Source of the DNA: Candidatus Magasanikiibacteriota bacterium
GTDB lineage: Bacteria; Patescibacteriota; Patescibacteriia; Magasanikbacterales; GWA2-37-8
Length of the DNA: 64,000 nucleotides
Direction: 5' to 3'
Assembly: GCA_030650025.1 (NCBI GenBank)
Contig: JAUSEN010000016.1
Location: 9,428 to 73,427 of the forward strand
Positions 32,311 through 60,993 of this stretch are shown here, piece by piece. The notes below the pieces were generated by a model. It had not been told where the DNA came from. It was given only the letters and a program-made list of their open reading frames with translations, and did not search any database. Both the position numbers and the translations under genes were made by a program. Within the stretch, counting starts at the first letter, position 1, and each line of letters opens with the position of its first letter.

Positions 32311-32348
<38 letters not shown>

Positions 32349-33408: not shown

Positions 33409-33430
33409 AGCGAAATTCCTTGTCGGGTAA

Positions 33431-34573: not shown

Positions 34574-34636
34574 GTACGATGTCGGCTCATCGCATCCTGG
34601 GGGTGAAGAAGCTCCCAAGGGTTTGGCTGTTCGCCA

Positions 34637-34688
<52 letters not shown>

Positions 34689-35124: not shown

Positions 35125-35236
35125 GTCTTGGTGGCTTTAAGCGAAGGGGTCACACCCGATCCCATCCCGAACTCGGCAGTTAAGCCCTTCTGCGCTGATG
35201 ATAGCCCAAGTGGCAAAAGTAGGCCGCCGCCAGGAC
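35125..35236 (+). rRNA. 5S rRNA
   Basis: cccgatcccatcccgaactcggcagttaagc matches the 5S loop B/C consensus (cf. E. coli cccacctgaccccatgccgaactcagaagtgaaac); terminal helix gtcttggtggc / gccgccaggac. Confidence 0.8.
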
Positions 35237-40429: not shown

Positions 40430-40433
40430 AAAT

Positions 40434-40928: not shown

Positions 40929-40933
40929 TTTTT

Positions 40934-42013: not shown

Positions 42014-42014
42014 T

Positions 42015-43037: not shown

Positions 43038-43148
43038 TTTGTAGTAAAAAAGGCTAAGTAAAGCCAGAACAGTGGTTTATCCACAGGTAGCTGTCAGAAA
43101 AAAATTGACAGCTATTTTGTTCTATGTTATGCTTAAATTAGCAAAAAT

Positions 43149-43883
43149 ATGGATATTTCTTTTTTTAAGAAATTGGGATTTTCTGACAAAGATGCCATGG
43201 TTTATATGGCACTTTTGGCGCTGGGGCCGTCGTCAGTGCGCAATTTGGCTAAAAAGGTGGAATTAAATCGCGGAACGGTTTATGAAATTTTGAAGAGCCT
43301 TAAAGAGCAGAAGCTGGTAACTTATTACGAAAAAGAAGCTAAACAATTTTTTGTAGCCGAGGATCCTATTAAACTGGAAGAATTGCTAGCTAGGCAGGAA
43401 GGAGAGCTGAATGATGTAAAGTCTAAGCTAAAAGGCGTGGTGTCCGAATTAAAGGCGGTTTATGACAAAGGCGGAGCGCGACCGGTGGCTCGCTATTATG
43501 AAAAAGGGGAAATCAAGAAAATTTTGGAGCATGTATTAGATATTTGCGAGGTGACAGAAGAGACGCAGTACCGGGTGTATTCGGATTCGAATATAACTGA
43601 ATATTTATATGAAGGGTTTCAAAGTTTTAGTGACGCGCGCGTCGCCAAGGGTATCGCGGTAAAGGCGATCGCCAGTGGGAGCGGCGGGGCGCTCCGCGGT
43701 TTAGATGAGCGCAAGTTTTTTACTGTTAAAAGCCAGAAGCCAACGTACATATTAATTTATCCAGGGCACACGGCCTATATTTCGCTCGACTCGGCCAACG
43801 AACTGGTTGGAGTGGTGATTGAGAATGACGGTATTTTTGAAATGCAGAAAAGTATTTTTGATGAGCTTTGGAAGAATTTGTAA
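43149..43883 (+). CDS. TrmB-family transcriptional regulator
   Basis: N-terminal wHTH LGFSDKDAMVYMALLALGPSSVRNLAKKVELNRGTVYEILKSLKEQKLV plus a coiled-coil and sugar-binding-like C-terminal domain. Confidence 0.75.
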   Translation: MDISFFKKLGFSDKDAMVYMALLALGPSSVRNLAKKVELNRGTVYEILKSLKEQKLVTYYEKEAKQFFVAEDPIKLEELLARQEGELNDVKSKLKGVVSELKAVYDKGGARPVARYYEKGEIKKILEHVLDICEVTEETQYRVYSDSNITEYLYEGFQSFSDARVAKGIAVKAIASGSGGALRGLDERKFFTVKSQKPTYILIYPGHTAYISLDSANELVGVVIENDGIFEMQKSIFDELWKNL

Positions 43884-43896
43884 CATAGATTACGCA

Positions 43897-44532
43897 GATT
43901 TTATGTTTATTATAGATTTCGATGATACGTTGTTTGATACACGCCCAAAGTTTATAGAGGCGAGGTTTGCGGCGGTAGCGACGCTTGGAGTAACTCGAGA
44001 ACAATACGATATTGCGCGCAACGGATTAAATAAAAATGGCAATTATACAACTAGGCGGCATGCCTACGAAATCGCGAAATTTGATTTTGATGAAGAAAAA
44101 GTTTGTTTAGCCCTCGATTCGGTTTTGGATTCAGAAAAATTACGCAGTTTTTTATTTGCTGATGCATCATATTTTTTAGAAAGCTTAAAAAAGTTAGAGC
44201 AACCGTTAGTTCTGTTAAGCCTGGGAGACGAGGAATTTCAAGCCTGTAAAGTACAGGGGGCAGGAATAGAGAAATATTTCGATAGAATATTTTATGTAAA
44301 TGATACGAAAAAACACGTAGTGCGAGAATTGCTTAGAGCCATCTCGGACGCAAAAGTATGGTTTGTGAATGACAGAGTAGAACAAACCAAAGAGTTGGCA
44401 GAAATGTTTCCGCGCTTAGTGCCGGTACTAAAACAGTCGGCGCGAGATAGTGAGGAGGATTATAAGTTAAGTGGTATTCCATATTTTAAGACTCTGACTG
44501 AAATTTATGACTATATTAAAGCGCAATCCTAG
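43897..44532 (+). CDS. HAD-superfamily hydrolase
   Basis: Motif I FIIDFDDTLFDT. The start was chosen at the first ATG that does not overlap the upstream gene; the track ORF starts at 43819. Confidence 0.55.
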   Translation, partial: DFMFIIDFDDTLFDTRPKFIEARFAAVATLGVTREQYDIARNGLNKNGNYTTRRHAYEIAKFDFDEEKVCLALDSVLDSEKLRSFLFADASYFLESLKKLEQPLVLLSLGDEEFQACKVQGAGIEKYFDRIFYVNDTKKHVVRELLRAISDAKVWFVNDRVEQTKELAEMFPRLVPVLKQSARDSEEDYKLSGIPYFKTLTEIYDYIKAQS

Positions 44533-45280
44533 TAATGTCGCGACGGTAATATTGGCCGCAGGGGAAGGCAGGCGGATGCAAAGCGCTTTGCCCAAAGTTA
44601 TGCATGAGCTTAGTAGGAAGCCGTTGATTGAATATGTGGTAAAGGCGGCAGAAGATTCTGGCGTGGCCGGGAGTTTAGTAGTAGTAGCGAGCGCAACAGG
44701 GCAGGCAGTGCAGGATTATTTAGGAGAGCGGGTAAGTTATGTGGTGCAGTCGCAGCAGCTTGGTACCGGGCACGCGGTAGCGGCTACGGAAGATTTTTTT
44801 AAAGAGCAATCAGACGAAATAGAAAGTATGGTGGTGCTTTATGGCGACATGCCATTTATCTCGCCCCAGTCGATTAAGCGTTTGACGGGAGAGCATATTG
44901 CTAAGCGCAATGTGCTAACCGTGATGACTGCCACGGTGCCAAATTTTGAGGGTACTAACAGCCAGTTTAAAGATTTTGGTAGGATCGTAAGGAATAGTAG
45001 GGGAGAGATTGAGAAGATTGTTGAGTATAAAGACGCGAGCGTGGCAGAAAAAAATATTGGTGAGGTAAATACTGGATTTTTCTGTTTTGACGCGCCGTGG
45101 CTTTGGTCGCATCTAAAGTTAATTAGGAACTCCAATGACCAGGGCGAATATTATTTGACGGATTTAGTGGGGCTCGCGATTCAAGGCGGGTATCCCATTA
45201 GCACAGTTTTGGTGGAAGTTAGCGAAGCGATTGGGGTTAATACCAAAGAGCAGTTAGAAAGATTGCATGTTATTAATTAA
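44507..45280 (+). CDS. sugar-1-phosphate nucleotidyltransferase (GlmU N-terminal-domain-like, no acetyltransferase domain)
   Basis: VILAAGEGRRMQSALPKVMHEL... nucleotidyltransferase fold; the left-handed beta-helix is absent. Confidence 0.7.
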   Translation: MTILKRNPSNVATVILAAGEGRRMQSALPKVMHELSRKPLIEYVVKAAEDSGVAGSLVVVASATGQAVQDYLGERVSYVVQSQQLGTGHAVAATEDFFKEQSDEIESMVVLYGDMPFISPQSIKRLTGEHIAKRNVLTVMTATVPNFEGTNSQFKDFGRIVRNSRGEIEKIVEYKDASVAEKNIGEVNTGFFCFDAPWLWSHLKLIRNSNDQGEYYLTDLVGLAIQGGYPISTVLVEVSEAIGVNTKEQLERLHVIN

Positions 45281-45326: not shown

Positions 45327-47168
45327 ATGTGTGGAATTGTTGGGTACATTGGAAAAAAACAGGCGTTACCGATTTTGCTTAATGGCTTGAAGCGTTTGGA
45401 ATACCGAGGGTATGATTCCGCGGGCGTGGCAGTATTAAATGAGGGGTTGTTTCAGACTACGCGATCGGTCGGTAAGATCGATAATTTGGTGGCAAAAATG
45501 CAAGATGAAAAAATAGGTGGGGCGAGCGGAATAAACGGGACGATGGGAATCGCTCACACCCGCTGGGCTACGCATGGCGGTGTTACCGAGGAAAATGCCC
45601 ATCCGCATAAGGATTGCACGGGTAATTTGATGATTGTGCATAATGGTATTATAGAAAATTATCGCGAACTTAAAGAAGATCTTGGTAAAAAACATGAATT
45701 TAAATCGCAGACTGATACGGAAGTGCTGGCGCATTTAATTGAGTCTTTATATAAAGGCGATTTACGGCTGGCAGTGGAAGCCGCTCTGGCTAAGGTGCGC
45801 GGGACATATGGATTGGTAGCTATGCATGCCAGCGAGCCCACAAAAATAGTAGCGGCGCGTTTGGGGAGCCCGCTCGTGGTGGGAGTGGGCGATAAAGAAT
45901 ACTATGTAGCTTCCGACACTTCGCCAATGCTGGCGCACACGCAGCAAGTGATTTTTTTAGATGATGGCGAAATCGCGGAAATTAGCGAACACGGGGTGCA
46001 GATTTATAATTTGGCTGATGAGAGGCTGAATAAACCAAGTGAAAAAATTGATTGGGACGAAACTACGGCCGAGCGGCAAGGGCATGACCACTTTATGCTT
46101 AAAGAAATTTTGGACCAGCCCACGGTTATTAAAGATGCTTTGCGCGGCCGTTTGGTAGAGAGCGATGGCACGGCTCGTCTCGGCGGCCTCAACATGACCG
46201 AGGAAGAAATGCACAAGATTAAGAGGGTGATATTGATCGCGTGTGGGACAGCGAGTTATGCCGCTCTCGTCGGTAAATATGCCTTTGAACGTTTAGCGGG
46301 GTTACCGACTACCGTAGAAATTGCCAGTGAATTTCGCTACAGCGACCCGGTGATAGATAATCACACTTTGGTTTTTGGCATCTCACAGTCTGGGGAAACC
46401 GCTGATACGCTCGCGGCCTTGCGCGAAGCCAAACGCAAGGGCGCGTTTGTGCGTGGTATTGTTAATGTGGTAGGTTCGACAATCGCTCGCGAAACTGATG
46501 GCGGCACCTATATTCACGCGGGGCCAGAATTGGCGGTCGCTTCGACAAAAGCGTTTATGAATATGATAGGCGTTTTGCTGATGTACGCGTTGCAGTTTGG
46601 GCGAGTAAATCGCCTGGCTGTGGCCACGGGCCAGCGTTTAGTTAAAGCCATGCTCCAGATTTCGGGAAAGATGAAGCAGACGCTCGAGTTAAGCGATCAA
46701 ATTAAAATTCTCGCCAAAAAATATTCTGGTTATAAAAATTATTTTTTCTTGGGGCGAGGAGTTAATTACCCGGTAGCTTTGGAAGGGTCTCTGAAACTTA
46801 AAGAATGTTCATATATTCATAGCGAAGCTTACCCGGGAGGGGAAATGAAGCATGGGCCAATCGCGCTTTTGTCGCCGGATTTCCCGGTGATGGCGATTAT
46901 GACCAAAAACCAGCTCTACGATAAAATGCGCAGCAATGTTGAAGAGATTAAGGCGCGTCAGGCGCCGCTGATAATTATAGCGACCGAGGGGGATGATAAG
47001 GCCAAAGAGCTCTCTGAAGATGTAATATATGTTCCTGCCACGATGGAGCTTTTAGAGCCGTTAATTAATACGATCCCGCTCCAGCTGTTTGCTTACCACA
47101 CCGCAGTAATGCTCGGGCGCGATGTTGACCGCCCGCGCAATTTAGCAAAGAGCGTGACTGTTGAGTAA
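45327..47168 (+). CDS. glmS: glutamine--fructose-6-phosphate aminotransferase
   Basis: MCGIVGY N-terminal nucleophile and two SIS domains; the C-terminus ends ...SVTVE. Confidence 0.9.
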   Translation: MCGIVGYIGKKQALPILLNGLKRLEYRGYDSAGVAVLNEGLFQTTRSVGKIDNLVAKMQDEKIGGASGINGTMGIAHTRWATHGGVTEENAHPHKDCTGNLMIVHNGIIENYRELKEDLGKKHEFKSQTDTEVLAHLIESLYKGDLRLAVEAALAKVRGTYGLVAMHASEPTKIVAARLGSPLVVGVGDKEYYVASDTSPMLAHTQQVIFLDDGEIAEISEHGVQIYNLADERLNKPSEKIDWDETTAERQGHDHFMLKEILDQPTVIKDALRGRLVESDGTARLGGLNMTEEEMHKIKRVILIACGTASYAALVGKYAFERLAGLPTTVEIASEFRYSDPVIDNHTLVFGISQSGETADTLAALREAKRKGAFVRGIVNVVGSTIARETDGGTYIHAGPELAVASTKAFMNMIGVLLMYALQFGRVNRLAVATGQRLVKAMLQISGKMKQTLELSDQIKILAKKYSGYKNYFFLGRGVNYPVALEGSLKLKECSYIHSEAYPGGEMKHGPIALLSPDFPVMAIMTKNQLYDKMRSNVEEIKARQAPLIIIATEGDDKAKELSEDVIYVPATMELLEPLINTIPLQLFAYHTAVMLGRDVDRPRNLAKSVTVE

Positions 47169-47194: not shown

Positions 47195-47848
47195 ATGAAA
47201 TTTTCGGCAGTAATTTTTGACCTCGACGGCGTTTTGATTGACAGTGAATTGCACTGGTTTCGCGAGGAGATGAAATTTTTGAAACAGTTTAATATCCAGC
47301 TTAAGCCGGCGGACGCGTTTAAACTAAGCGGCAAAAGTTTGTATGAGGTGGCTGGCATTTTAAAAGCAGAGCATGGATTACTCGCGCCGATTGATGATTT
47401 GCTGGGGCAAAAAAAAGCTATGGCTGACAAAATTTACCGCTTTAATGCCAGAAAAATGCGCGGAGTGGATAAGTTACTAAAGGTTTTAGAGAAAAATGAA
47501 TATAAAATAGCGATTGCGTCGGGCTCGGCGTTAAAACGCGTTAAAATGATTGTGGAGAGATTTGGTTGGAAAAAGTATTTTGACAAATTAGTGTCCACGG
47601 AGCAAGTTAACTTGCTGGGGAAACCGGATCCGGCCATATATCGTTACGCGGCTATGAGTTTAAAAGTTAAGCCAGAAAATTGTTTGGTATTTGAAGATTC
47701 TTTAAATGGAGTATATGCGGCTCATGGCGCTGGCATGCAATGTGTGGGAGTGCCAGATGCCAGGTGGAGCTGGGGCGATTTTTCAGAGGCCGATTTGGTA
47801 ATAGATTCGTTAGCCGATAAAAAGTTGTTTAATTTTTTGGGGTTATGA
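47195..47848 (+). CDS. HAD hydrolase (beta-phosphoglucomutase-like)
   Basis: AVIFDLDGVLIDSE motif I. Confidence 0.65.
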   Translation: MKFSAVIFDLDGVLIDSELHWFREEMKFLKQFNIQLKPADAFKLSGKSLYEVAGILKAEHGLLAPIDDLLGQKKAMADKIYRFNARKMRGVDKLLKVLEKNEYKIAIASGSALKRVKMIVERFGWKKYFDKLVSTEQVNLLGKPDPAIYRYAAMSLKVKPENCLVFEDSLNGVYAAHGAGMQCVGVPDARWSWGDFSEADLVIDSLADKKLFNFLGL

Positions 47849-48837
47849 AAAAAAATAAATTAAAAGTCGTGGCGGTGGGGGGAGGAAATGGCAGTGCGAT
47901 TGTGCTTGAGGCCTTAAAAAATTACGCTGATCGTTTGGAAATTTCGGCGGTGATTTCGGTAAGCGACTCGGGCGGCTCGAGCGGAGAATTACGGCGCCAG
48001 TTTAAATTGCCGCCGCCGGGCGATATTTTGCGCGCGGTTTTGGGTTTGTCACCTTATGATTACCGCTTATTAAAAAAGATTTTTTATGGCAATCGTTTTG
48101 AACACTTGAAAAAATTTAAAGTCAAAGGCGCCGTGCGCGGTTTAAAAGGGCATAATTTAGGCAACTTATTTTTGATGATGTTAGCAAATGCCGAAGGGGA
48201 CTACTTAAACGCTATTAGAGCTTTGGAAAAAGCGGTAGCAGCGCAAGGTCATGTTTACCCTGTATCCCTAGAATTAACTGATTTAGGAGTAGAATTAGCA
48301 AACGGCAGAGCGGTTATTGGCGAAGGCAATATTGATCGGCCGAACTATAGTAGAAAATTAAAAATTGAAAAAGCATTTTTAAAGCCACTTGTTAAAGTTT
48401 ATAAACAAGCGGAGCAGGTACTTAAGAGTGCGGATGTAATTATTTTTTGCCCGGGCAGTTTATACTGCAGTGTAATCGCCGCGCTTTTGCCCAGAGGTGT
48501 TAAAGAGGCGATAGCGAGAAATGGGAGAGCGAAGTTAGTCTATATTCCGGGCGATGCTTATGAGATTAATGGCGAGACGGGCCCAGAGAAATTGAGCGAA
48601 TTTGTTAGCCAAATTGAACAGTATTTACCGCGCGCCCTTGATGTAGTAATGTACAATGACTGCGAATTAAGTGGACGCCTAAAAAAACGTTATAAAGAAA
48701 AGAAATGGGCGCAGTTTAAGAAAGATCCTGAGGATATAAAAGGCAAAAAGTTGGTGAGCGGAGATTTTGAGAAAGAAGCAGGTGGCTTGAGCAGTGCCAA
48801 GCTCGCACCTATGCTTAAAAAAATAATTTTTGTATGA
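47845..48837 (+). CDS. CofD/YvcK-family (UPF0052, gluconeogenesis-factor-like) protein
   Basis: VVAVGGGNGSAIVL...VSDSGGSSGELRR signature. Confidence 0.7.
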   Translation: MKKNKLKVVAVGGGNGSAIVLEALKNYADRLEISAVISVSDSGGSSGELRRQFKLPPPGDILRAVLGLSPYDYRLLKKIFYGNRFEHLKKFKVKGAVRGLKGHNLGNLFLMMLANAEGDYLNAIRALEKAVAAQGHVYPVSLELTDLGVELANGRAVIGEGNIDRPNYSRKLKIEKAFLKPLVKVYKQAEQVLKSADVIIFCPGSLYCSVIAALLPRGVKEAIARNGRAKLVYIPGDAYEINGETGPEKLSEFVSQIEQYLPRALDVVMYNDCELSGRLKKRYKEKKWAQFKKDPEDIKGKKLVSGDFEKEAGGLSSAKLAPMLKKIIFV

Positions 48838-49196
48838 ATATTAAGAAAGACATAATAAAAGACAGTTTGATGGTAAAGATAACAGTGACAGAAGAGGGCC
48901 AAGAAGCGGGGCGGTGCTTTGTATATATTTTGCATAATGATTTGCACGCCGAGCCGTTTGCGTATTTAGAGGATGTATTTGTTGCCGAGAAATTTAGAGG
49001 CCAAAAAATTGGGACTAAATTGGTGGAACTGGCTGTGGAAGAGGCGAAAAGCCGGGGGTGTTATAAAATGATTTTTACAACTCGCCATGCTAAGCCCGAA
49101 GTGCAGGAGTGGTATAAAAAATTGGGATTTAAAGATTGGGGAACAGAATTTAGGATGGATTTAAAATCAGACTCGAAAATATTGACGAAAGATTAA
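48834..49196 (+). CDS. GNAT-family N-acetyltransferase
   Basis: VAEKFRGQKIGTKLV acetyl-CoA-binding motif. Confidence 0.6.
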   Translation: MNIKKDIIKDSLMVKITVTEEGQEAGRCFVYILHNDLHAEPFAYLEDVFVAEKFRGQKIGTKLVELAVEEAKSRGCYKMIFTTRHAKPEVQEWYKKLGFKDWGTEFRMDLKSDSKILTKD

Positions 49197-49197
49197 T

Positions 49198-50397
49198 ATG
49201 AATCTGTACGAATTTGAGGGAAAAAATTTATTGGCTAAACATGGAATTAAAACGCCGCGAGGCGTGGTGGTTCGGCGTGGGGATGATTTTGTTAGTAAGT
49301 ATAATGAATTAGTGAAATTGGGAATTAAAGACGTGGTGGTGAAGGCCCAAGTTTTGAGCGGTAAGCGTGGTAAAAATAATGGGATTAAATTTTGTGATAA
49401 TGGCGAGGAGGTAAAAAAGGCATGTGAGGAATTATTTACTTTAAATATTCGAGGGCAGTATGTGGCGGCTATATTAATTGAAGAAAAATTAGCCATTGCG
49501 GAAGAACATTATATTTCGATTGTTTATGATACTAACAAAAAACAGCCGTGTTTAATTTATAGTAAACAGGGAGGGATGGATATTGAGGATGTGGCAGAGG
49601 AGAAGATTGAGAAAGTGTGGTTGGATATTAGGGAAGAAAATGTCGTTGGCGTAGAGACGTTGCACGCAACGTCTCTACCGATTGATGAATTATGGAAATT
49701 ATTTTTAAACGAAGATACCCGGCAAGTAGAAATTAATCCGCTCGTGAAAACCAAATCTGGCGAATGGGTCGCGGCGGACGCAAAAATCGCGATTGATGAT
49801 GATGCTTTTTTTAGACACCCCTCGGCAAGCTCGGGGCCTTCGGTAACTGATTGGACCAAATTTGAGCCGCGGACAATGCTGGGGCGCCTGCCGACAAGCC
49901 GGGAAATTGCCGTCAAGAAAATTGATGAAGGCGAAAAATATTACCAAGGCACAGCCGGGAAGTATATTGAGCTCGACGGTGATATCGCGATGATTTTAAA
50001 CGGGGGTGGAGCGAGTATCGCCAATATGGACGCCCTAGCTCAAGTGGGACTCAAAGCTGCTAATTACACGGAATATTCCGGTAATCCACCGAGAGAAAAA
50101 GTCGCGGCGTTGGCGCGCATTGTACTATCTAAACCTGGTCTCAAGGGCCTTTGGATGTGTGGGGTAGTAGCCAATTTTACTAACATTAAAGAAACGTTTT
50201 TAGGGATTTGCGATGCCCTCGATGAAATTAAGCCGACTTACCCAATTGTCGTCCGGCGCGACGGCACGGAGAGTGCCGCGGGGTTCGCATTATTAGAAGA
50301 ATGCGCCAAGCGTAATAATTTGAATATTAAAATGTTTAAAAAGGAAACCGGCATGAGTGCCACGGCGCAAATTTTGGCGGAGATGATAGAAAAATAA
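49198..50397 (+). CDS. SucC-like ATP-grasp subunit (succinyl-CoA synthetase beta / citryl-CoA synthetase large subunit-like)
   Basis: MNLYEFEGKNLLAKHGI... ATP-grasp N-domain and the ...DGDIAMILNGGGASIANMD ligase-CoA motif. Confidence 0.7.
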   Translation: MNLYEFEGKNLLAKHGIKTPRGVVVRRGDDFVSKYNELVKLGIKDVVVKAQVLSGKRGKNNGIKFCDNGEEVKKACEELFTLNIRGQYVAAILIEEKLAIAEEHYISIVYDTNKKQPCLIYSKQGGMDIEDVAEEKIEKVWLDIREENVVGVETLHATSLPIDELWKLFLNEDTRQVEINPLVKTKSGEWVAADAKIAIDDDAFFRHPSASSGPSVTDWTKFEPRTMLGRLPTSREIAVKKIDEGEKYYQGTAGKYIELDGDIAMILNGGGASIANMDALAQVGLKAANYTEYSGNPPREKVAALARIVLSKPGLKGLWMCGVVANFTNIKETFLGICDALDEIKPTYPIVVRRDGTESAAGFALLEECAKRNNLNIKMFKKETGMSATAQILAEMIEK

Positions 50398-50406
50398 TAA
50401 TCAACT

Positions 50407-51297
50407 ATGTCTATCTTGATAGATAAAAACACAAAAGTAGTAGTCCAAGGCATGACTGGCAAAGAAGGCCAGAAAGGCGCCAAAGCCATGCTGGATTATA
50501 ATACCACTGTTTTATGCGGAGTAACGCCGAACAAAGGTGGGCAAGAAGTGGAAGGAAAGCCGATTTTTAATTCAGTAGGAGAAGCTAAAGCGCAGTGGCC
50601 GGATTTAAATACCAGCGTTATTTATGTGCCGCCGTTTGCGGCTAAAGCCGCGATTTTGGAAGCGATTGAAGCGGGGGTAGCGTTAATAAATGTGTTTACC
50701 GAGAGAATTCCCATTAAAGACACGGCGTATTGTTTGGCGGCGTCTCAGGAGAAGGGGGCGAGAGTGCTCGGACCAAGTTCGTTAGGCGTGATTAACCCAG
50801 GAATTGGGAGATTAGGAGTGGTCGGAGGGCCATTAGTTAATGAAATTTTTCAGCCTGGGAGTATTGGCGTGGTCTCGCGTTCGGGCGGAATGACCAATGA
50901 ACTCTCTTGGAGTTTGAGGCAGGCAGGTTTAGGGCAGAGTGCGGCGGTGCACGTGGGCGGCGATTTGCTTATGGGCACAACGTATGCGGATGTTTTGCGC
51001 CTGTTTGAGAAAGATGCCAACACCAAGGGCGTGATTATTTTTGGAGAACACGGCGGCAGTTATGAATTTGAAATTGTGGAGGCGATACAAAAGAAAGAAT
51101 ACACCAAGCCGCTCGCCATTTTTATCGGCGGTAAATTTGCCAGCAGCCTCCCGGAAGGCATGAATATTGGCCACGCCGGCGCGATTGTGGAGCGCGGCAA
51201 GGGCGCGGCGGAAAAGGCCGCTGCTTTGGCTACAGTGGGAGTAATGATCGCGGAGCAATACGAAGATTTGGTTAATTTGATTAAACCTTATGCCTGA
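50407..51297 (+). CDS. SucD-like CoA-binding subunit (alpha)
   Basis: VVVQGMTGKEGQKGA CoA-binding Rossmann fold; SRSGGMTNE and GHAGAI (phospho-His) regions. Confidence 0.7.
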   Translation: MSILIDKNTKVVVQGMTGKEGQKGAKAMLDYNTTVLCGVTPNKGGQEVEGKPIFNSVGEAKAQWPDLNTSVIYVPPFAAKAAILEAIEAGVALINVFTERIPIKDTAYCLAASQEKGARVLGPSSLGVINPGIGRLGVVGGPLVNEIFQPGSIGVVSRSGGMTNELSWSLRQAGLGQSAAVHVGGDLLMGTTYADVLRLFEKDANTKGVIIFGEHGGSYEFEIVEAIQKKEYTKPLAIFIGGKFASSLPEGMNIGHAGAIVERGKGAAEKAAALATVGVMIAEQYEDLVNLIKPYA

Positions 51298-51631
51298 TTT
51301 AAACCAAATGACGAGCACAATTCAACAGGCGGAAGAGGCCATTGCTAAAGTTTCTAGTACAGCTGGGGCGATAAATGATGCTTATGTAAAAACCAAAAAT
51401 GTGATAGAGCAGGGTAGGCGTTATTATGATGTGTTTAAGAGTTGGGTGGAAAAATTTCAGGAGTGGTTGGAAAAACTTGAGCCCTATATTACGCCGGTAA
51501 AAAATTTCTGGCTAAAAATTAGCAATAATAACGAACCGAAACGGGTACTAGTCATCGTTTTGGTGGTAGTGGTGGTAATTGTTTTATGGAAATTGCGTAA
51601 TTTACGCGCGGGGCAAAAATTTGACCGATAG
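51290..51631 (+). CDS. hypothetical protein with C-terminal TM helix
   Basis: ORF with a hydrophobic C-terminal segment (VLVIVLVVVVVIVLW). Confidence 0.4.
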   Translation: MPDLNQMTSTIQQAEEAIAKVSSTAGAINDAYVKTKNVIEQGRRYYDVFKSWVEKFQEWLEKLEPYITPVKNFWLKISNNNEPKRVLVIVLVVVVVIVLWKLRNLRAGQKFDR

Positions 51632-51634
51632 TTT

Positions 51635-52462
51635 ATGAAGAAAAACCAAATGAAAAAATTTAGAAAAGGTGAACGAAACGCGCTCGGAATGACAGCTGAC
51701 CAGAGCTCTGTAATACGTAATACGGCTTGGGAAAAATCCAGCCGCTGGTACGATAAGCTGGTGGGTGAGGGCGGGCATTATTACCATGAGCATGTAATAC
51801 TCCCGGCAGTTTTAGCTATTTTTAAACTCCAGAACGGCGACAGTGTTTTAGATATTGGCTCGGGCCAGGGGGTGCTCGCCCGTATTCTGCCAAGAGGCAT
51901 TTCGTATGTTGGGGTGGACGCGTCGCTCTCTCTCACTAAAGTGGCGTCGGCAAAAAATAAAAACCCAGAGCACCGGTACGTGTGTGCCGACGCTGGCAAG
52001 ACTCTTCCGGTAGCGAAAAAAGATTTTACGCACGCGGCGATTATTTTGGCTTTACAGAATATGGAGAACCCGGGTAGTGTGCTCAAAAACACTGCCGTGC
52101 ATCTTAAAGGCGGAGCAAAATTAGTGATTGTTCTTAATCACCCGGCCTTTCGGATTCCGCGCCAGAGCGGGTGGGATGTTAACCCCAAGAATAATATCCA
52201 ATACCGCTGGATAAATCGTTATTTAAGTCCCATGAAAATTCCGCTCAATATGCACCCGGGGAAAAGTAATACCGAGTTAACCTGGAGTTTCCACGAGCCG
52301 ATTTCGGCATACGCGAAATTTTTGAAAGAAGCCGGGTTTGTGATTGAAAATATTGAAGAGTGGAGCTCGGATAAAACCAGTACGAGCCGCGAAAAAAAAC
52401 GCGAGGACCGGGCGCGGGCGGAAATCCCGCTGTTTATGTGCGTGGTGGCTATCAAAAAATAA
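51635..52462 (+). CDS. class I SAM-dependent methyltransferase
   Basis: Motif I VLDIGSGQGVLA. Confidence 0.6.
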   Translation: MKKNQMKKFRKGERNALGMTADQSSVIRNTAWEKSSRWYDKLVGEGGHYYHEHVILPAVLAIFKLQNGDSVLDIGSGQGVLARILPRGISYVGVDASLSLTKVASAKNKNPEHRYVCADAGKTLPVAKKDFTHAAIILALQNMENPGSVLKNTAVHLKGGAKLVIVLNHPAFRIPRQSGWDVNPKNNIQYRWINRYLSPMKIPLNMHPGKSNTELTWSFHEPISAYAKFLKEAGFVIENIEEWSSDKTSTSREKKREDRARAEIPLFMCVVAIKK

Positions 52463-52484
52463 TTATTTATTATAACTTTTCGAT

Positions 52485-53219
52485 ATGACGATAAAATTTA
52501 AAACAGCTATTTCTAATGTTAACGCCGGCGATGAGGTGGTGCGGGGAGAAAATTTAAAAAATTTAATAGTAGCCAAAACATTTACCGAAGTTATTTTTTT
52601 GATTTTACGGGGTGTGATGCCAACGTCAGAAGAAGTTCAGATGCTGAACGCGGTATTAGTAAGTATGATTGACCATGGGCCCGGGGTGAGCTCGGCTTTA
52701 ACGGCGCGGGTGGTTCAGTCCGCGGGGAATGATTTGCATACGGGGGTGGCCGCGGGAATGCTAGCTTTGGGAGGGAATAGGCATGGCGGAGCGCTCGGCG
52801 GCGCGGCTAAATTTTTTCAGGAAAATTTTGAGACTCAAGACTTGCCTGGGTTATTAAAAAATTTAAAAGACAAGAAAATTCGTGTGCCGGGGTATGGGCA
52901 TAAAGTTTTGGCGCATGATAACAGAACCGACGTGCTTTTTGGAGTAGCCAAAGAAACAGGTTTTTTTGGAAAATATTCTGAATTTGCTAATACAGTGCAT
53001 GAAGAAATTAATAAAATAGCTTCGAAAAAATTGCCGTTGAATATGGACGGGGCGAACGCGGCGATTCTGTCTGACATGGGTTTTGATTGGCGTTTAATAA
53101 CGGGATTTTTCTTAATTGGCCGCACCCCAGGCCTCGTGGCGCAAGTCTACGAGGAAATGCAGAGCGGGGAGGGTATCAGACGGTTAGAAGAGAGTGAGAT
53201 AGAGTATTTGGGAAGTTAG
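52485..53219 (+). CDS. citrate-synthase-like catalytic-domain protein (citryl-CoA lyase-like, short form)
   Basis: VPGYGHKVLAHDNRTDVLF resembles the citrate synthase GxGHxVY(K)xxDPR active-site block; the whole protein is only 244 aa. Confidence 0.55.
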   Translation: MTIKFKTAISNVNAGDEVVRGENLKNLIVAKTFTEVIFLILRGVMPTSEEVQMLNAVLVSMIDHGPGVSSALTARVVQSAGNDLHTGVAAGMLALGGNRHGGALGGAAKFFQENFETQDLPGLLKNLKDKKIRVPGYGHKVLAHDNRTDVLFGVAKETGFFGKYSEFANTVHEEINKIASKKLPLNMDGANAAILSDMGFDWRLITGFFLIGRTPGLVAQVYEEMQSGEGIRRLEESEIEYLGS

Positions 53220-53253: not shown

Positions 53254-54090
53254 TTATTCTTTTTCGGCGTATATTACCGCGTAGCGTGAGAGAAATTTTA
53301 AAAAGGGAAAAATTTTGAGAAGTTTTTCGTCCCCGCGCTGCAAGGCGCGGTTCATTTTTTGTTTGCCAGTTTCTAAGTCTGGTTCGCGCTTAAAAAAAAT
53401 CTTGGTTAAAAACAAAAATAGCGGTTTTATTTTGTAAATAAAGGGGCTAAAGATTCGGTAGGGAATAAAAATGGTGTGAGTAAAGATTGTTGCGATTAGC
53501 CGCAAGTCGTCAATTAGTAAAATTCTTTCGGTGGGGGTTTCCTGCCTAATAGGGTAGAGCTTAGTAAAAAGTTTGGAGACGCGAATATTTTGGATGGTTT
53601 TGGAAAAGGCCAAAGGTTCGATAGCGATTAATTTTCCGCCTGGTTTTAACACACGTTTAAATTCGTTGAGGGCCAGGTCTACTTCCAGGTGGTGGAGCGA
53701 AACATTAATGAATACAATGTCAAAAAAGTTATCCTCAAACGGGGTGTGTTCAGCAGGGCAGGCATAAAAATGTGTTTGGGCAGTGGTATTATTGGTACGG
53801 GATCTAGCCTCGGCAATTTTGATGCTTTCGTCGCTGATGTCAAGGCCATAAACTTCAGCGCCGTTTTTGGCCAGCCAAACGCTTAGTTCGCCATTGCCAC
53901 AGCCAATTTCCAAAATCTTTTTGCCGTTAACATTTTACAAAAATTTTTTAGCGCCGTCCAACAAGTCTCCGCTGTAAGTGCCAAAGGGCGGCACGTTTTT
54001 GTCGACCAACAGAGGTTTACCGTCCCATTTTTCGTGGACAATAGCGTTGAAACAGTCGCGTTCGATATTTTGTTTTGAGCTGTAAGACAT
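53254..54090 (-). pseudogene. class I SAM methyltransferase (UbiE/SmtA-like) interrupted by an in-frame TAA (53935-53937)
   Basis: MSYSSKQN...GAKKFL - TAA - NVNGKKILEIGCGNGELS... are in one frame; motif I spans the junction. The track calls only the part downstream of the stop (53254-53913). Confidence 0.55.
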
Positions 54091-57155: not shown

Positions 57156-58304
57156 ATGCGAAAGCTTAAGTTTTTGGGGGCAATGGCAGCAGGTTTGGCG
57201 CTTTTCGGCGCCGGGTGTTCTTTTACTCCGCCAGGAGAGAAGTCTGTTACAGAGGGTAGCTATGTCCCTAAAACAGCTGATACTAGCCCAATTAAAATTG
57301 GTTGGGTGGGGCCTTTGACAGGGGACGCGGCGAGTGTTGGTAAAGACGCGTTGACAGCGGCGCAGTTGGCAGTGGAGGAAGTGAATGCCGCGGGCGGCAT
57401 TAACGGGCGAATGCTTGAACTTGTGGCCGAAGACGGCAAATGTAATCCTAAAGACGCGGCTACGGCAGGGAATAAGCTTATTAATGTAGACAAAGTCCCG
57501 GCGATTGTGGGGACGGCGTGTTCAGGCGAGATGATGGCAATTGCGCCAACTGCCGAACAGAATAAAACAATTATGGTGGGTTACTGCGCTTCGGCTCCGA
57601 CGGTCAGCGCGGCGGGTGATTATATCTTTCGCACGTATCCGTCCGATGTTCTGCAATCCAAATTTGTCGCTGAATATGTTTATAATACTCTTGGCAAGAA
57701 GAAAGTGGCCACGCTTGCCGTCCTCGGCGATTGGGGGACTGGCCTTAAGAACGGCTTTGAACAGCGCTTTAAAGAATTAGGCGGAGAAGTTGTTTCTTCT
57801 CAAGACTATGTGCAGGAAAGTCGCGATTTACGCACACAGTTGACTAAAGCCAAGGACAGCCAGCCCGAGATTTTATTTTTTGTCGGATACACAGAAGCTT
57901 CGATTGCTGGTTTAAAACAAGCTAAAGAGCTCGGCCTTAATGTATCGATAATTGGCGGCGATGCCTGGGATGACACCAAGATTCATGCTAATTCTTTTGC
58001 CGAGGGCATTATGTACAGTGTCGGGGCCGCGCCCCAGTATGACCTGGCCTGGGTAGAAAAATTAAAACAGAAGGGCGCTACCACCAATGTCTGCGTGCCT
58101 CGTTCGTATGACAACGTCAAACTCCTGGCAGAAATTATGAAACGGACTGGGACGGACACTGCTAAAATTAAAGACGAGCTGTACAAGGTGCAAGGTTATC
58201 AAGGAATTGGTGGCATAGTAAATATGGACAGCAACGGTGACAATACTTCTGCCCAGTTCCAAATTAAAGTAGTTAAGAACGGCAAAGCCGAAGCGGCAAA
58301 ATAA
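57156..58304 (+). CDS. branched-chain amino acid ABC transporter substrate-binding lipoprotein (LivJ/LivK family)
   Basis: Lipobox FGAGCS; IKIGWVGPLTGDAASVGKD...INGRMLELVAEDGKC. Confidence 0.8.
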   Translation: MRKLKFLGAMAAGLALFGAGCSFTPPGEKSVTEGSYVPKTADTSPIKIGWVGPLTGDAASVGKDALTAAQLAVEEVNAAGGINGRMLELVAEDGKCNPKDAATAGNKLINVDKVPAIVGTACSGEMMAIAPTAEQNKTIMVGYCASAPTVSAAGDYIFRTYPSDVLQSKFVAEYVYNTLGKKKVATLAVLGDWGTGLKNGFEQRFKELGGEVVSSQDYVQESRDLRTQLTKAKDSQPEILFFVGYTEASIAGLKQAKELGLNVSIIGGDAWDDTKIHANSFAEGIMYSVGAAPQYDLAWVEKLKQKGATTNVCVPRSYDNVKLLAEIMKRTGTDTAKIKDELYKVQGYQGIGGIVNMDSNGDNTSAQFQIKVVKNGKAEAAK

Positions 58305-58381
58305 AAATTGCTTAATCAGAGTCTTCAAGCGGGCGCCCCGCGCCACAGGCACGGGGCGCCCGTTCTGTAAATTGGCGTAAT

Positions 58382-59287
58382 ATGGAAATCGCCAGTGCCG
58401 CAATTTTGCCCCAGCTCATAGTCAACGGCCTGATAGCCGGGGCAATGTATTCTCTTACGGCCGCAGGGTTCTCGCTGGTGTACGCGACGAATCGTTTTTT
58501 GAATTTGGCACACGGTGGCATAATGATGGTGGGGGCGTACCTCGTGTATACGTTTTTTAATCTGGCTGGTTTAAATTTTTACGCGGCGAGCTTTTTGGCA
58601 GTGATTTGCACCAGCCTGTTTGGGGGATTTTTGTTTGTAAGCGTTTATCGGCCGCTCCGCCAGAAAAAAGCGGCCAATATGGTAATGCTTATCGCCGCCG
58701 CTGGCTTAGCAATACTCTTAGAAGCGCTCGTTACCTTAATTTTTGGCACTGACGTTAAACAGCTGAATTTTATCAGCGTGCAAGAGGGGTGGCATATCGC
58801 CGGGGCGATTATTACTCCGCTCCAGCTTGTCGTGATGGCAGTATCGGCCGTTCTTTTGGTGAGTTTCGCGGTTTTTATGAAGTATAGCTCTTGGGGCAAA
58901 TTAATCCGCGCTGTTGCCGATAATGCTGATTTAGCGCGCACCACCGGTATTAACCCTTACGCTGTGCAATTATGGAGTTTTGTGATCGCGTGCGCCATCG
59001 CGAGCGTAGCCGGAATTTTAATCGGCCTGGAGCGCAATATCGAGCCGCGCATGGGCTTGGGCTTCGCGCTGGTTAGTTTTGCTAGCACGGTAGTAGGCGG
59101 CATGGGTTCGCTCCCCGGGGCAATACTCGGGAGTTATTTGATAGGGCTAGCAGAAAATGTCGGTCAGTGGATTCTGCCTTCTGGCTATAAAGAAGCTATT
59201 TGGCTTGTGATGCTGTTTTTGTTTTTACTTATCCGCCCGAGCGGAATTTTTGGCACGGAGCAAGGGGTGCGGCAAACAAAATTATGA
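58382..59287 (+). CDS. livH: branched-chain amino acid ABC permease
   Basis: LivH-like TM protein in operon context. Confidence 0.7.
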   Translation: MEIASAAILPQLIVNGLIAGAMYSLTAAGFSLVYATNRFLNLAHGGIMMVGAYLVYTFFNLAGLNFYAASFLAVICTSLFGGFLFVSVYRPLRQKKAANMVMLIAAAGLAILLEALVTLIFGTDVKQLNFISVQEGWHIAGAIITPLQLVVMAVSAVLLVSFAVFMKYSSWGKLIRAVADNADLARTTGINPYAVQLWSFVIACAIASVAGILIGLERNIEPRMGLGFALVSFASTVVGGMGSLPGAILGSYLIGLAENVGQWILPSGYKEAIWLVMLFLFLLIRPSGIFGTEQGVRQTKL

Positions 59288-60156: not shown

Positions 60157-60228
60157 CACAGATTACCTGCCCGCAATGCTTCGCATAGCGAGGCGGGCGG
60201 GCGCAGATTCATTTGGATTAAACAGATT

Positions 60229-60957: not shown

Positions 60958-60993
60958 TGTTTATTTACGGAACAACAATTTTCTCGCTAACTG

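What the first reader, a model, noticed from the sequence alone, without database searches (positions are those of the whole stretch)
49198..53219. SucC-like + SucD-like + stand-alone citrate-synthase-like catalytic protein: possible split ATP-citrate-lyase-type module (citryl-CoA synthetase + citryl-CoA lyase)
An ATP-grasp beta-like subunit (399 aa) and a CoA-binding alpha-like subunit (296 aa) lie close to a 244-aa protein carrying the citrate synthase active-site block (GYGHKVLAHDNRTD). That protein is far too short to be a full citrate synthase; its size fits the Ccl protein or the C-terminal domain of AclA. The genes are separated by a small membrane protein and a methyltransferase. In an organism without a TCA cycle this would be an unusual acetyl-CoA/oxaloacetate interconversion module. 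It could also be an ordinary succinyl-CoA synthetase beside an unrelated lyase.
Basis: inference. Interest (0 to 1): 0.5.

Follow-up and report, generated by a model that had tools for sequence, protein, structure and literature searches.

The report
Citrate-splitting enzymes in an amino-sugar operon

Summary
ORFs 49198-50397, 50407-51297 and 52485-53219 encode citryl-CoA synthetase (CcsA and CcsB) and citryl-CoA lyase (Ccl), the split form of ATP-citrate lyase known from Hydrogenobacter. They are not an ordinary succinyl-CoA synthetase. CcsA has the ACL citrate-binding domain and citrate-type residues where SCS differs. It separates from SCS in 100% of bootstraps. Ccl passes a curated citryl-CoA lyase cutoff and keeps all eight citrate synthase active-site residues. 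CcsB keeps the phosphohistidine.

This is not new as an annotation. NCBI and JGI already use these names, and a 2022 preprint places CPR sequences with CCS/CCL.

The context is what adds something. In about 90 loci of CPR class ABY1 the three genes follow, on the same strand, a TrmB-like regulator, a GlmU lacking its acetyltransferase half, GlmS, YvcK/GlmR and a ~110-aa mini-GNAT. The small membrane protein and the methyltransferase between ccsB and ccl are rare insertions. In a DPANN archaeon the same mini-GNAT sits in a GlmS-GNAT-NTP-transferase trio.

My best reading, which is an inference, is that citrate is cleaved to supply acetyl-CoA for hexosamine N-acetylation.

The parts
43105..43133 (+). 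Best sigma-70-like promoter match (TTGACA-17-TATGCT with TG), just upstream of the first gene of the cluster
   Evidence: The number of promoter-like sites in the region is not above the shuffled expectation, so this is weak evidence.
43149..43883 (+). TrmB-like HTH regulator at the head of the cluster
   Evidence: weak matches to TrmB family models. A TrmB gene occupies the same position in L081, L082 and L089.
43819..44532 (+). HAD-family hydrolase (start codon uncertain)
   Evidence: TIGR02253 HAD at 1.5e-5. Found upstream in 42 of 80 related loci.
44507..45280 (+). GlmU-like sugar-1-phosphate uridylyltransferase that lacks the C-terminal LbH acetyltransferase half
   Evidence: matches GlmU profiles only over positions 2-231 of 447; the E. 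coli GlmU N-terminal half hits window 44537-45247, and the C-terminal half has no hit in the window. Found upstream in 56 of 61 loci with enough flank.
45327..47168 (+). GlmS, glutamine--fructose-6-phosphate aminotransferase
   Evidence: NF001484 at 801 bits against a cutoff of 381. Found in 59 of 61 loci.
47195..47848 (+). Beta-phosphoglucomutase-family HAD protein (possible sugar-phosphate mutase or phosphatase)
   Evidence: TIGR02009 at 113.8 bits, below the cutoff. Found in 30 of 80 loci.
47845..48837 (+). YvcK/GlmR, the UDP-GlcNAc-binding CofD-related protein. Overlaps the genes on both sides by 4 nt.
   Evidence: TIGR01826 at 198.7 bits against a cutoff of 196. CofD at 1.3e-56. Found in 66 of 67 loci. 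Function in Bacillus and Listeria: PMC7525490, PMC6171935, PMC10128056.
48834..49196 (+). Mini-GNAT acetyltransferase (120 aa; the family is about 110 aa), the candidate consumer of the acetyl-CoA. Ends 1 nt before the ccsA start.
   Evidence: Found in 63 of 71 loci. Occurs in a GlmS-miniGNAT-NTase trio in an Aenigmatarchaeota contig.
49198..50397 (+). CcsA, citryl-CoA synthetase large (beta-type) subunit: ATP-grasp domain plus citrate-binding domain. Citrate-type residues are G295, N326, T328 and R354.
50407..51297 (+). CcsB, citryl-CoA synthetase small (alpha-type) subunit: CoA-binding domain, phosphohistidine H256, E214
   Evidence: Found in 69 of 69 loci.
51290..51631 (+). 113-aa coiled-coil, tail-anchored small protein. 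A lineage-specific insertion and probably not part of the enzyme system.
   Evidence: No family match. Present in only 10 of 80 loci.
51635..52462 (+). Class I SAM-dependent methyltransferase. A lineage-specific insertion.
   Evidence: Present in only 3 of 80 loci.
52485..53219 (+). Ccl, citryl-CoA lyase (citrate synthase catalytic core). Active-site residues are H64, H100, H139, R147, D188, F209, R213 and R233.
   Evidence: Found in 57 of 58 loci.
53333..53350 (+). Best intrinsic-terminator-like hairpin (7 bp, 6 of them G-C, then a T-run), 114 nt after the ccl stop
   Evidence: This is a consensus scan only, so weak evidence.

Best explanation
The three proteins form the two-step, ATP-dependent citrate cleavage system.

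1. CcsA (ATP-grasp plus citrate-binding domain) and CcsB (CoA-binding domain with a phosphohistidine loop) convert citrate + ATP + CoA to citryl-CoA + ADP + Pi through a phospho-His256 intermediate.
2. Ccl, a citrate synthase catalytic core, cleaves citryl-CoA into acetyl-CoA and oxaloacetate.

This part rests on sequence, profile and residue evidence, and I hold it at about 0.85.

The physiological role is inferred from conserved gene order, and I hold it at about 0.45. The system is not part of a carbon-fixing reverse TCA cycle. It is the last part of one tightly packed operon: TrmB, HAD, a GlmU without its acetyltransferase half, GlmS, HAD, YvcK/GlmR, mini-GNAT, CcsA, CcsB, Ccl. I propose that it turns imported citrate into the acetyl-CoA that the mini-GNAT uses to N-acetylate glucosamine phosphate on the way to UDP-GlcNAc for the cell wall. 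In role this resembles what cytosolic ACLY plus GNA1 do in eukaryotes. The fate of the oxaloacetate and the route of citrate uptake are unknown.
For: Enzyme identity, CcsA:
- It has Pfam Citrate_bind PF16114 (88.8 bits against a cutoff of 26.8), and Ligase_CoA (PF00549) is not among its matches at E <= 0.01.
- It falls below the SucC equivalog cutoff, 237 against 370 bits.
- Its best PDB hit is 6HXQ_B, the CCS large subunit, at 1.2e-54. Its C-terminal domain scores 105-118 bits to CCS against 40-56 bits to SCS.
- ACLY G309, N346, T348 and R379 correspond to G295, N326, T328 and R354. These are invariant in 16 relatives, and SCS has G, R, D and L/V at the same positions.
- It separates from SCS in 100% of 300 NJ bootstraps, and groups with H. 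thermophilus CcsA in 72%.

Enzyme identity, Ccl:
- NF004869 citryl-CoA lyase scores 265 bits against a cutoff of 212.
- 6HXP matches at 1.5e-59 over residues 5-244.
- All eight CS active-site residues are conserved (residue list from PMC13147460).

Enzyme identity, CcsB and existing names:
- H256 and E214 correspond to E. coli SucD His246 and Glu208.
- JGI and NCBI already use the CCS and CCL names.

Role, gene order:
- In loci with enough flanking sequence, the same-strand upstream genes are CofD/YvcK in 66 of 67, GlmS in 59 of 61, mini-GNAT in 63 of 71 and NTase in 56 of 61. Downstream, CcsB is present in 69 of 69 and Ccl in 57 of 58.
- The same core is found in Uhrbacteria, Kerfeldbacteria and three further CPR contigs.
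- In the window the genes overlap by 4 nt or are 1-9 nt apart from the second HAD gene (47195-47848) to CcsB.

Role, acetyl-CoA demand:
- The GlmU homologue lacks its acetyltransferase half, and that half gives only two weak hits in 1.57 Mb of related loci.
- The mini-GNAT sits in a GlmS-GNAT-NTase trio in a DPANN archaeon that has no CCS nearby.
- GNA1 structures are among its best structural matches, with TM 0.75-0.76 and rmsd 1.1-1.2 A.
- The window encodes a class A PBP, so peptidoglycan is made.

Role, absence of a cycle:
- No SDH, OGDH or full-length CS homologue appears in the window or in the related loci.
Against: - No activity has been measured for any CPR member, and substrate specificity is inferred from conserved residues only.
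- The alpha subunit is as similar to archaeal SCS alpha (249 bits) as to CcsB (230 bits).
- All the CPR loci belong to one class (ABY1), so part of the conserved gene order could be inherited rather than selected.
- The GNAT-CcsA adjacency is broken by more than 1 kb in 19 of 63 loci.
- The mini-GNAT's substrate is unknown. Its sequence and fold matches to GNA1 are no better than those to aminoglycoside or polyamine acetyltransferases. It also lacks the N-terminal ~40 residues that help bind the acceptor in normal GNATs.
- Whole genomes could not be inspected. Other acetyl-CoA sources (PFOR, ACS), a separate GlmU acetyltransferase and a citrate transporter may or may not exist.
- The overall reaction is close to equilibrium, about -8 kJ/mol, so direction is not fixed by thermodynamics.
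Confidence: 0.6

Rival explanations
1. It is a generic citrate-salvage module. CCS/CCL cleaves citrate to give acetyl-CoA and oxaloacetate for general metabolism (any acetylation, or C4/C3 supply through malic enzyme or an aminotransferase), and its position next to the amino-sugar genes is inherited gene order without a specific functional link.
For: All loci come from one CPR class. rRNA-modification genes (RluA and a SAM methyltransferase) sit between GNAT and CcsA in many loci. A malic enzyme or an aminotransferase lies nearby in some loci. The mini-GNAT occurs without CCS elsewhere.
Against: The linkage survives divergence down to 23-57% identity for CofD and 35-63% for GNAT, and it survives many insertions and local rearrangements. 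The window shows translational-coupling-type overlaps. The cluster contains a GlmU without its acetyltransferase half, which creates a specific need for an acetyl-CoA-using enzyme.
Confidence: 0.25
2. The system runs in reverse. Ccl condenses acetyl-CoA and oxaloacetate to citryl-CoA, and CcsAB then releases citrate while making ATP. That would be a citrate synthase route with substrate-level phosphorylation.
For: Both steps are near equilibrium: CCS -5.9 and CCL -2.1 kJ/mol in the cleavage direction. Ccl keeps the complete citrate synthase catalytic set.
Against: No aconitase, IDH or other citrate-using genes were seen nearby. The reverse direction is uphill by about 8 kJ/mol. The module is linked to an acetyl-CoA consumer (GNAT), not to an acetyl-CoA producer. 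An organism with so little biosynthesis has no obvious use for citrate.
Confidence: 0.08
3. It is an ordinary succinyl-CoA synthetase (SucCD) that happens to lie near an unrelated citrate-synthase-like lyase.
For: The alpha subunit's best PDB hits are archaeal SCS alpha subunits. The N-terminal ATP-grasp half of the beta subunit scores higher to Thermus SCS (119 bits) than to H. thermophilus CCS (69 bits).
Against: Both subunits fall below the curated SucC and SucD cutoffs. The beta C-terminal domain is the ACL citrate-binding type. The specificity positions are N, T and R, not R, D and L. It separates from SCS with 100% bootstrap support. Ccl follows CcsB in 57 of 58 loci.
Confidence: 0.03
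4. It is a citrate-cleavage step of an autotrophic reverse TCA cycle, as in Aquificaceae, or the same enzyme fold acting on a different hydroxy-acid such as malate, citramalate or methylcitrate.
For: CCS/CCL is classically an rTCA marker. Substrate identity is not measured.
Against: No other TCA or rTCA enzyme homologue (SDH/FRD, OGDH, full-length CS) was found in the window or in 1.57 Mb of related loci. From general knowledge, CPR bacteria have minimal metabolism without TCA cycles. All four citrate-contacting residues of ACLY are invariant.
Confidence: 0.04

Closest known systems
Hydrogenobacter thermophilus citryl-CoA synthetase (CcsA/CcsB, PDB 6HXQ) and citryl-CoA lyase (Ccl, PDB 6HXP)
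   Same: It has the same three-polypeptide architecture. These are the best solved-structure matches for the beta subunit (1.2e-54) and for the lyase (1.5e-59, full length). The C-terminal domain groups with Ht CcsA in 72% of bootstraps. The phosphohistidine and the lyase catalytic residues are conserved.
   Different: Identity is only about 41% in the citrate-binding domain. The citrate loop reads ANFTN as in ACL, not ANNTR as in Ht CcsA. CcsB is shorter, 296 aa against the 353-aa PDB chain. The host is a CPR bacterium with no sign of an rTCA cycle. All three genes are co-linear and attached to an amino-sugar operon, which is not the known context in Aquificaceae.
ATP-citrate lyase (bacterial/archaeal AclAB, e.g. 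Chlorobium 6HXJ and Methanosaeta 6HXI; eukaryotic ACLY)
   Same: The overall chemistry is the same. The citrate-binding residues G309, N346, T348 and R379 are identical, as are the motifs GGGAS, ANY-EYSG and ANFTN. The lyase domain is homologous. The proposed role, supplying acetyl-CoA for biosynthetic acetylation including the hexosamine pathway, resembles that of cytosolic ACLY in eukaryotes (general knowledge).
   Different: In ACL the alpha-type subunit is fused to the lyase domain (AclA), and in eukaryotes everything is one chain. Here the alpha subunit and the lyase are separate genes, and in this window 1.2 kb of inserted genes lies between them. PDB scores to ACL are lower than to CCS.
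Succinyl-CoA synthetase SucCD
   Same: It shares the ATP-grasp, CoA-binding and phosphohistidine machinery. The alpha subunit is 44% identical to E. coli SucD, and its best hits are archaeal SCS alpha subunits.
   Different: The beta C-terminal domain is of the citrate-binding type. The specificity residues differ. Both subunits fall below the curated SCS cutoffs. It is separated from SCS with 100% bootstrap support.
Eukaryotic-type hexosamine route using a GNAT (GNA1, GlcN-6-P N-acetyltransferase) instead of the GlmU acetyltransferase domain
   Same: The cluster has GlmS, a GNAT, and a uridylyltransferase without an LbH acetyltransferase domain. GNA1 structures are among the best fold matches of the mini-GNAT.
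   Different: The mini-GNAT is only about 110-120 aa and lacks the N-terminal beta1-alpha1-alpha2 region. Its substrate is untested. A YvcK/GlmR protein is always adjacent. No phosphoacetylglucosamine mutase was identified.

Membership tests
Citryl-CoA synthetase large subunit (CcsA, K15232) | N-terminal ATP-grasp domain followed by the ACL/CCS citrate-binding domain rather than the SucC Ligase_CoA domain | tested here: met
   ATP-grasp_2 at 1.3e-41 and Citrate_bind PF16114 at 88.8 bits against a cutoff of 26.8. Ligase_CoA is not among the matches.
Citryl-CoA synthetase large subunit (CcsA, K15232) | Citrate-contacting residues equivalent to ACLY G309, N346, T348 and R379 (residue list recalled from Sun et al. 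2010, not re-read here) | tested here: met
   G295, N326, T328 and R354. These are invariant in 16 relatives. SCS has G, R, D and L/V at the same positions.
Citryl-CoA synthetase large subunit (CcsA, K15232) | Groups with characterised CCS/ACL and not with SCS in a phylogeny | tested here: met
   SCS is split from the rest in 100% of 300 NJ bootstraps, and the CPR clade groups with Ht CcsA in 72%. The tree uses the C-terminal domain only, with a small reference set and the NJ method.
Citryl-CoA synthetase large subunit (CcsA, K15232) | Citrate-, ATP- and CoA-dependent formation of citryl-CoA | not testable with these tools
   This needs an enzyme assay.
Citryl-CoA synthetase small subunit (CcsB, K15233) | CoA-binding Rossmann domain plus a phosphohistidine loop (GHAGA) | tested here: met
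   CoA_binding and Ligase_CoA. H256 corresponds to SucD His246 and E214 to Glu208.
Citryl-CoA synthetase small subunit (CcsB, K15233) | Closer to CcsB than to SucD | tested here: inconclusive
   archaeal SCS alpha scores 249 and 237 bits, CcsB 230 bits and bacterial SucD about 208 bits. It falls below the SucD equivalog cutoff, 287 against 336 bits. The assignment rests on its invariable pairing with CcsA, 69 of 69 loci.
Citryl-CoA lyase (Ccl, K15234) | About 250-aa protein matching only the catalytic C-terminal part of citrate synthase and passing a curated CCL model | tested here: met
   NF004869 at 265.1 bits against a cutoff of 212. Citrate_synt profile positions 162-355 only; 6HXP at 1.5e-59 over residues 5-244.
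Citryl-CoA lyase (Ccl, K15234) | Citrate synthase catalytic and substrate residues (E. coli H229, H264, H305, R314, D362, F383, R387, R407) | tested here: met
   H64, H100, H139, R147, D188, F209, R213 and R233. The residue list is from PMC13147460.
Citryl-CoA lyase (Ccl, K15234) | Cleavage of citryl-CoA to acetyl-CoA and oxaloacetate | not testable with these tools
   This needs an enzyme assay.
Succinyl-CoA synthetase (SucCD) | Passes the curated SucC/SucD equivalog models and has a Ligase_CoA C-terminal domain in the beta subunit | tested here: not met
   236.7 against 370 bits for beta and 287.4 against 336 bits for alpha; the beta C-terminal domain is Citrate_bind.
ATP-citrate lyase (AclAB / ACLY) | Alpha-type subunit fused to the citryl-CoA lyase domain in one polypeptide | tested here: not met
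   there are separate ORFs at 50407-51297 and 52485-53219, with two genes between them. They are also separate genes in all related loci examined.
Reverse TCA cycle (autotrophic context of CCS/CCL) | Co-occurrence with 2-oxoglutarate:ferredoxin oxidoreductase, fumarate reductase, aconitase and IDH | not testable with these tools
   Only 64 kb of the genome is available.
GNA1-type glucosamine-phosphate N-acetyltransferase (for the adjacent mini-GNAT) | GNAT fold closest to GNA1, with a complete acceptor-binding N-terminal region | tested here: inconclusive
   the GNA1 structures 3T90 and 1I1D have the best TM and rmsd values (0.75-0.76; 1.1-1.2 A), but other GNATs have equal E-values; the family lacks about 40 N-terminal residues. 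The context GlmS-GNAT-NTase supports the assignment.

The most novel reading that the evidence does not exclude
In ABY1-class CPR bacteria the split ATP-citrate lyase has been taken out of any cycle and wired into the UDP-GlcNAc operon as a dedicated acetyl-CoA generator for a new ~110-aa 'mini-GNAT' hexosamine acetyltransferase, a family also found in DPANN archaea. Cell-wall synthesis in these episymbionts would then depend on citrate taken from the host or the surroundings. That would be a prokaryotic counterpart of the eukaryotic ACLY-to-hexosamine link, and a concrete, testable metabolic dependency of CPR cells.
Probability: 0.4. Interest if true: 0.6.

Novelty: new member of a known kind. 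Interest (0 to 1): 0.42.

Why it matters
CCS/CCL and ACL are treated as marker enzymes of autotrophic reverse-TCA carbon fixation in metagenome surveys. Here they occur in a conserved operon in bacteria with very reduced metabolism and no visible cycle. Counting these genes as evidence for rTCA autotrophy would therefore be wrong for this large groundwater lineage.

If the operon logic is right, it names a specific nutrient (citrate) and a specific product (the acetyl group of cell-wall amino sugars) that tie these uncultivated cells to their hosts or surroundings. That could help design media and labelling experiments. It also points to an uncharacterised mini-GNAT, always paired with YvcK/GlmR, as the missing acetyltransferase of a GlmU-independent UDP-GlcNAc route in CPR and DPANN organisms.

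Tried and rejected
- Ordinary SCS plus an unrelated lyase was rejected on domain type, curated cutoffs, specificity residues and bootstrap support.
- I considered that the small membrane protein and the methyltransferase between ccsB and ccl might be functional parts of the module. I rejected this because they are present in only 10 of 80 and 3 of 80 related loci. Insertions at these junctions are common, with gaps over 150 nt in 27 of 57 loci.
- The alpha subunit could not be assigned to CcsB or SucD by similarity. The result was inconclusive.
- I tried to annotate the whole window through the look-up of encoding contigs. It returned only short Logan contigs of the same sample and added little.
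- I could not read Sun et al. 2010 for the citrate-binding residues because the paper is not held. The residue list is from memory, checked only for consistency with native numbering in the 3MWD alignment.
- Promoter and terminator scans gave counts no higher than shuffled sequence, so the operon boundaries are suggestive only.
- NCBIfam and PDB sequence searches for the mini-GNAT gave only generic GNAT hits. The fold search does not discriminate GNA1 from other GNATs.
- The contexts of two other mini-GNAT homologues (L092 and L093) were uninformative.
- I considered the adjacent Liv-type ABC transporter as a possible citrate importer. There is no support for this: the family is amino-acid type and is found next to the module in few loci.
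- Literature searches found no paper linking CCS/CCL to amino-sugar synthesis in CPR.

Full report
**Observation.** Pfam assigns the following:
- ATP-grasp_2 plus the 'ATP citrate lyase citrate-binding' domain PF16114 to the first.
- CoA_binding plus Ligase_CoA to the second.
- Nothing to the third.
- A class I methyltransferase to the fourth.
- Only the C-terminal half of the citrate synthase profile (positions 162-355 of 357) to the fifth.

**Source organism.** The window comes from a Candidatus Magasanikbacteria MAG of the CPR/Patescibacteria, on a 130-kb contig. This fits its 3.9-kb 23S rRNA gene, which carries a group I intron and has no 16S gene beside it.

**Beta-like subunit.**
- It falls below the curated SucC cutoffs (237 against 370 bits), and the alpha-like subunit falls below the SucD cutoff (287 against 336 bits).
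- Its best solved relative is the H. thermophilus citryl-CoA synthetase large subunit (6HXQ_B, 1.2e-54). The signal lies in the C-terminal, substrate-binding domain, which scores 105-118 bits to CCS, 68 to Chlorobium AclB, 52-55 to archaeal and human ACL, and 36-56 to SCS.
- I used the alignment to human ACLY in native numbering (3MWD) together with an E. coli SucC reference. The residues I recall as citrate-contacting in ACLY (G309, N346, T348, R379; Sun et al. 2010, which I could not re-read) correspond to G295, N326, T328 and R354. SCS has G, R, D and L/V at those positions. All four are invariant in 16 relatives.
- In a neighbour-joining tree of this domain, SCS is split from CPR + CCS + ACL in 100% of 300 bootstraps. 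The CPR clade is sister to H. thermophilus CcsA in 72% and sister to ACL in 25%.

**Lyase and alpha subunit.**
- The 244-aa protein passes NCBIfam citryl-CoA lyase NF004869 (265 against 212 bits).
- It aligns over its full length with H. thermophilus Ccl (6HXP, 1.5e-59).
- It keeps all eight E. coli citrate synthase active-site residues listed in PMC13147460: H64, H100, H139, R147, D188, F209, R213 and R233.
- The alpha subunit keeps the phosphohistidine (H256) and its partner glutamate (E214).
- By similarity alone the alpha subunit cannot be told apart from SCS alpha subunits. Its assignment as CcsB rests on its invariable pairing with CcsA.

**Prior knowledge.** The identification is not new. 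NCBI names these exact proteins 'ATP citrate lyase citrate-binding domain-containing protein' and 'citryl-CoA lyase'. JGI names close homologues 'citryl-CoA synthetase large subunit' and 'citryl-CoA lyase'. A 2022 preprint (10.1101/2022.10.25.513756) states that CPR and DPANN sequences annotated as SCS or CS are monophyletic with CCS and CCL. A 2025 survey lists aclAB genes as enriched in another CPR class. I found no paper that explains what the system does in such organisms or that links it to amino-sugar synthesis.

**Context in the window.** The genes upstream on the same strand are as follows:
- A TrmB-like regulator.
- A HAD protein.
- A GlmU homologue that matches only the uridylyltransferase half of GlmU (profile positions 2-231 of 447).
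- GlmS (801 bits).
- A beta-phosphoglucomutase-family HAD protein.
- YvcK/GlmR, the UDP-GlcNAc-binding CofD relative, which passes its curated cutoff.
- A 120-aa GNAT.

From the second HAD gene (47195-47848) to CcsB the genes overlap by 4 nt or are separated by 1-9 nt. The best promoter-like site lies just before the TrmB gene and the best terminator-like hairpin just after ccl. These scans are not above chance.

**Context in relatives.** I fetched 80 genome loci carrying CcsA homologues at 60-76% identity, nearly all from Magasanikbacteria. Among loci with enough flanking sequence, the counts are:

| Gene | Position | Loci |
|---|---|---|
| CofD/YvcK | upstream | 66 of 67 |
| GlmS | upstream | 59 of 61 |
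| mini-GNAT | upstream | 63 of 71 |
| NTase | upstream | 56 of 61 |
| CcsB | downstream | 69 of 69 |
| Ccl | downstream | 57 of 58 |

The 113-aa protein and the 275-aa methyltransferase are found in only 10 of 80 and 3 of 80 loci, so they are local insertions. Such insertions between the three genes are common in this lineage. The same CofD-GNAT-CcsA-CcsB-Ccl core, usually with GlmS and the short NTase, occurs in Uhrbacteria, Kerfeldbacteria and three other long CPR contigs. All of these lineages belong to CPR class ABY1, so the conservation is at class level.

**The mini-GNAT.**
- Its family is about 110 aa and highly conserved. It is found mainly in CPR but also, at 53-57% identity, in DPANN archaea.
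- In an Aenigmatarchaeota contig it lies in a GlmS-miniGNAT-NTP-transferase trio, overlapping GlmS by 4 nt, with no CCS/CCL nearby. This is independent context evidence that it belongs to the hexosamine pathway.
- The GlmU acetyltransferase (LbH) half gives only two weak hits in 1.57 Mb of window plus related loci, whereas the uridylyltransferase half is found in 62 sequences.
- An AlphaFold model of the mini-GNAT is confident (pLDDT 90.5). The best TM and rmsd values are to GlcN-6-P N-acetyltransferases (Arabidopsis 3T90 and yeast GNA1; TM 0.75-0.76, rmsd 1.1-1.2 A). Aminoglycoside and polyamine acetyltransferases have equal E-values, so the fold test is only suggestive.
- The protein lacks the roughly 40 N-terminal residues of ordinary GNATs. 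I have no explanation for that. Its constant pairing with YvcK/GlmR, which binds UDP-GlcNAc and controls GlmS in Bacillus (PMC7525490, PMC6171935) and has uridyltransferase activity in Listeria (PMC10128056), may be relevant.

**Mechanism.** The sequence evidence shows a complete, catalytically intact CCS plus CCL. The rest is inferred.
1. CcsAB forms citryl-CoA from citrate, ATP and CoA through phospho-His256.
2. Ccl splits citryl-CoA into acetyl-CoA and oxaloacetate.
3. The co-transcribed mini-GNAT uses the acetyl-CoA to N-acetylate a glucosamine phosphate made by GlmS.
4. The truncated GlmU then forms UDP-GlcNAc for peptidoglycan. The window encodes a class A PBP.

No SDH, OGDH or full-length citrate synthase homologue is present in the window or in the related loci. 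That is consistent with a role outside any cycle, but whole genomes were not available. The reaction is near equilibrium at about -8 kJ/mol, so the direction is inferred from context and not from thermodynamics. The oxaloacetate fate is open: a malic enzyme or an aminotransferase lies nearby in a minority of loci. The citrate uptake route is also open.

**Rivals.** The main rival is a generic citrate-salvage role in which the gene order is inherited by chance. The other rivals are reverse operation as an ATP-yielding citrate synthase, ordinary SCS, and an rTCA remnant or a different substrate. They are weighed in the rival section.

**Verdict.** The system is a new member of a known kind, and databases and a preprint already recognise it. 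What this analysis adds is the conserved embedding in a GlmU-acetyltransferase-less UDP-GlcNAc operon with a mini-GNAT and YvcK/GlmR. That gives a specific, testable hypothesis for why bacteria thought to lack a TCA cycle keep an ATP-dependent citrate-cleaving system. It also warns against reading these genes as rTCA markers in CPR-rich metagenomes.

Noticed in passing
window 31093-35235: The 23S rRNA gene is 3867 nt against a 2925-nt model. It carries a group I intron (Rfam hit at 33419-33631) and is followed by the 5S gene. No 16S gene lies beside it in the window, so the rRNA genes appear unlinked, as is often seen in CPR.
   Followed up: no
window 48834-49196; L091 10001-10339: A ~110-aa 'mini-GNAT' family lacks the usual N-terminal ~40 residues. 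It is almost always next to YvcK/GlmR in CPR. It is shared at 53-57% identity with DPANN archaea (Aenigmatarchaeota), where it sits between GlmS and an NTP-transferase. This suggests cross-domain transfer of an uncharacterised hexosamine acetyltransferase.
   Followed up: partly
window 61745-63085; L081 10754-12157; L089 15418-16689; L090 13420-14673: A 420-470-aa protein of unknown function (precomputed Pfam 'MJ0043_C'; weak PHP-domain signal) recurs downstream of the ccs-ccl genes in 48 of the ~93 sequences searched. It is 53-56% identical between the window and L089/L090.
   Followed up: partly
window 57156-61725; L089 10808-15411: A LivKHMGF-type ABC transporter (Peripla_BP_6 binding protein, two permeases, two ATPases) lies just downstream of the module in the window and in L089. 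Its substrate is unknown, and there is no evidence that it imports citrate.
   Followed up: partly
L088 6029-8577 and 9505-9957; many loci: The junctions CcsA/CcsB and CcsB/Ccl are hot spots for inserted small genes. L088 has six small ORFs between ccsA and ccsB and an extra 150-aa GNAT before ccl. Gaps over 1 kb occur in 9 of 69 and 14 of 57 loci. The window's 113-aa protein plus methyltransferase insertion is one example.
   Followed up: partly
L002, L003, L006 and many others; L041: Many TPA MAG records titled 'uncultured Gammaproteobacteria bacterium', and one titled 'Candidatus Udaeobacter sp.', carry this CPR-type cluster at 62-75% identity to the Magasanikbacteria protein. The record titles look like taxonomic mislabelling or mis-binning.
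   Followed up: no
window 29793-30437 and 38736-43037: Sugar-phosphate genes lie just upstream of the amino-sugar cluster: a transaldolase/FSA-family protein, GlpX-type fructose-1,6-bisphosphatase, a DeoC/LacD-family aldolase and GAPDH. These could supply fructose-6-phosphate to GlmS.
   Followed up: no
L090 12291-13418; L089 2277-4626: In some relatives a malic enzyme (8 sequences), or an alcohol-dehydrogenase-like protein plus a class I/II aminotransferase (11 sequences), lies within the cluster. These are possible routes for the oxaloacetate made by Ccl. They are absent from the window.
   Followed up: partly
window 482-3352, 6673-7062 and 7479-9275: A class A penicillin-binding protein (transglycosylase plus transpeptidase), a PIN-domain protein and a 598-aa protein with a type IV pilin-like N-terminal methylation motif.
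   Followed up: no
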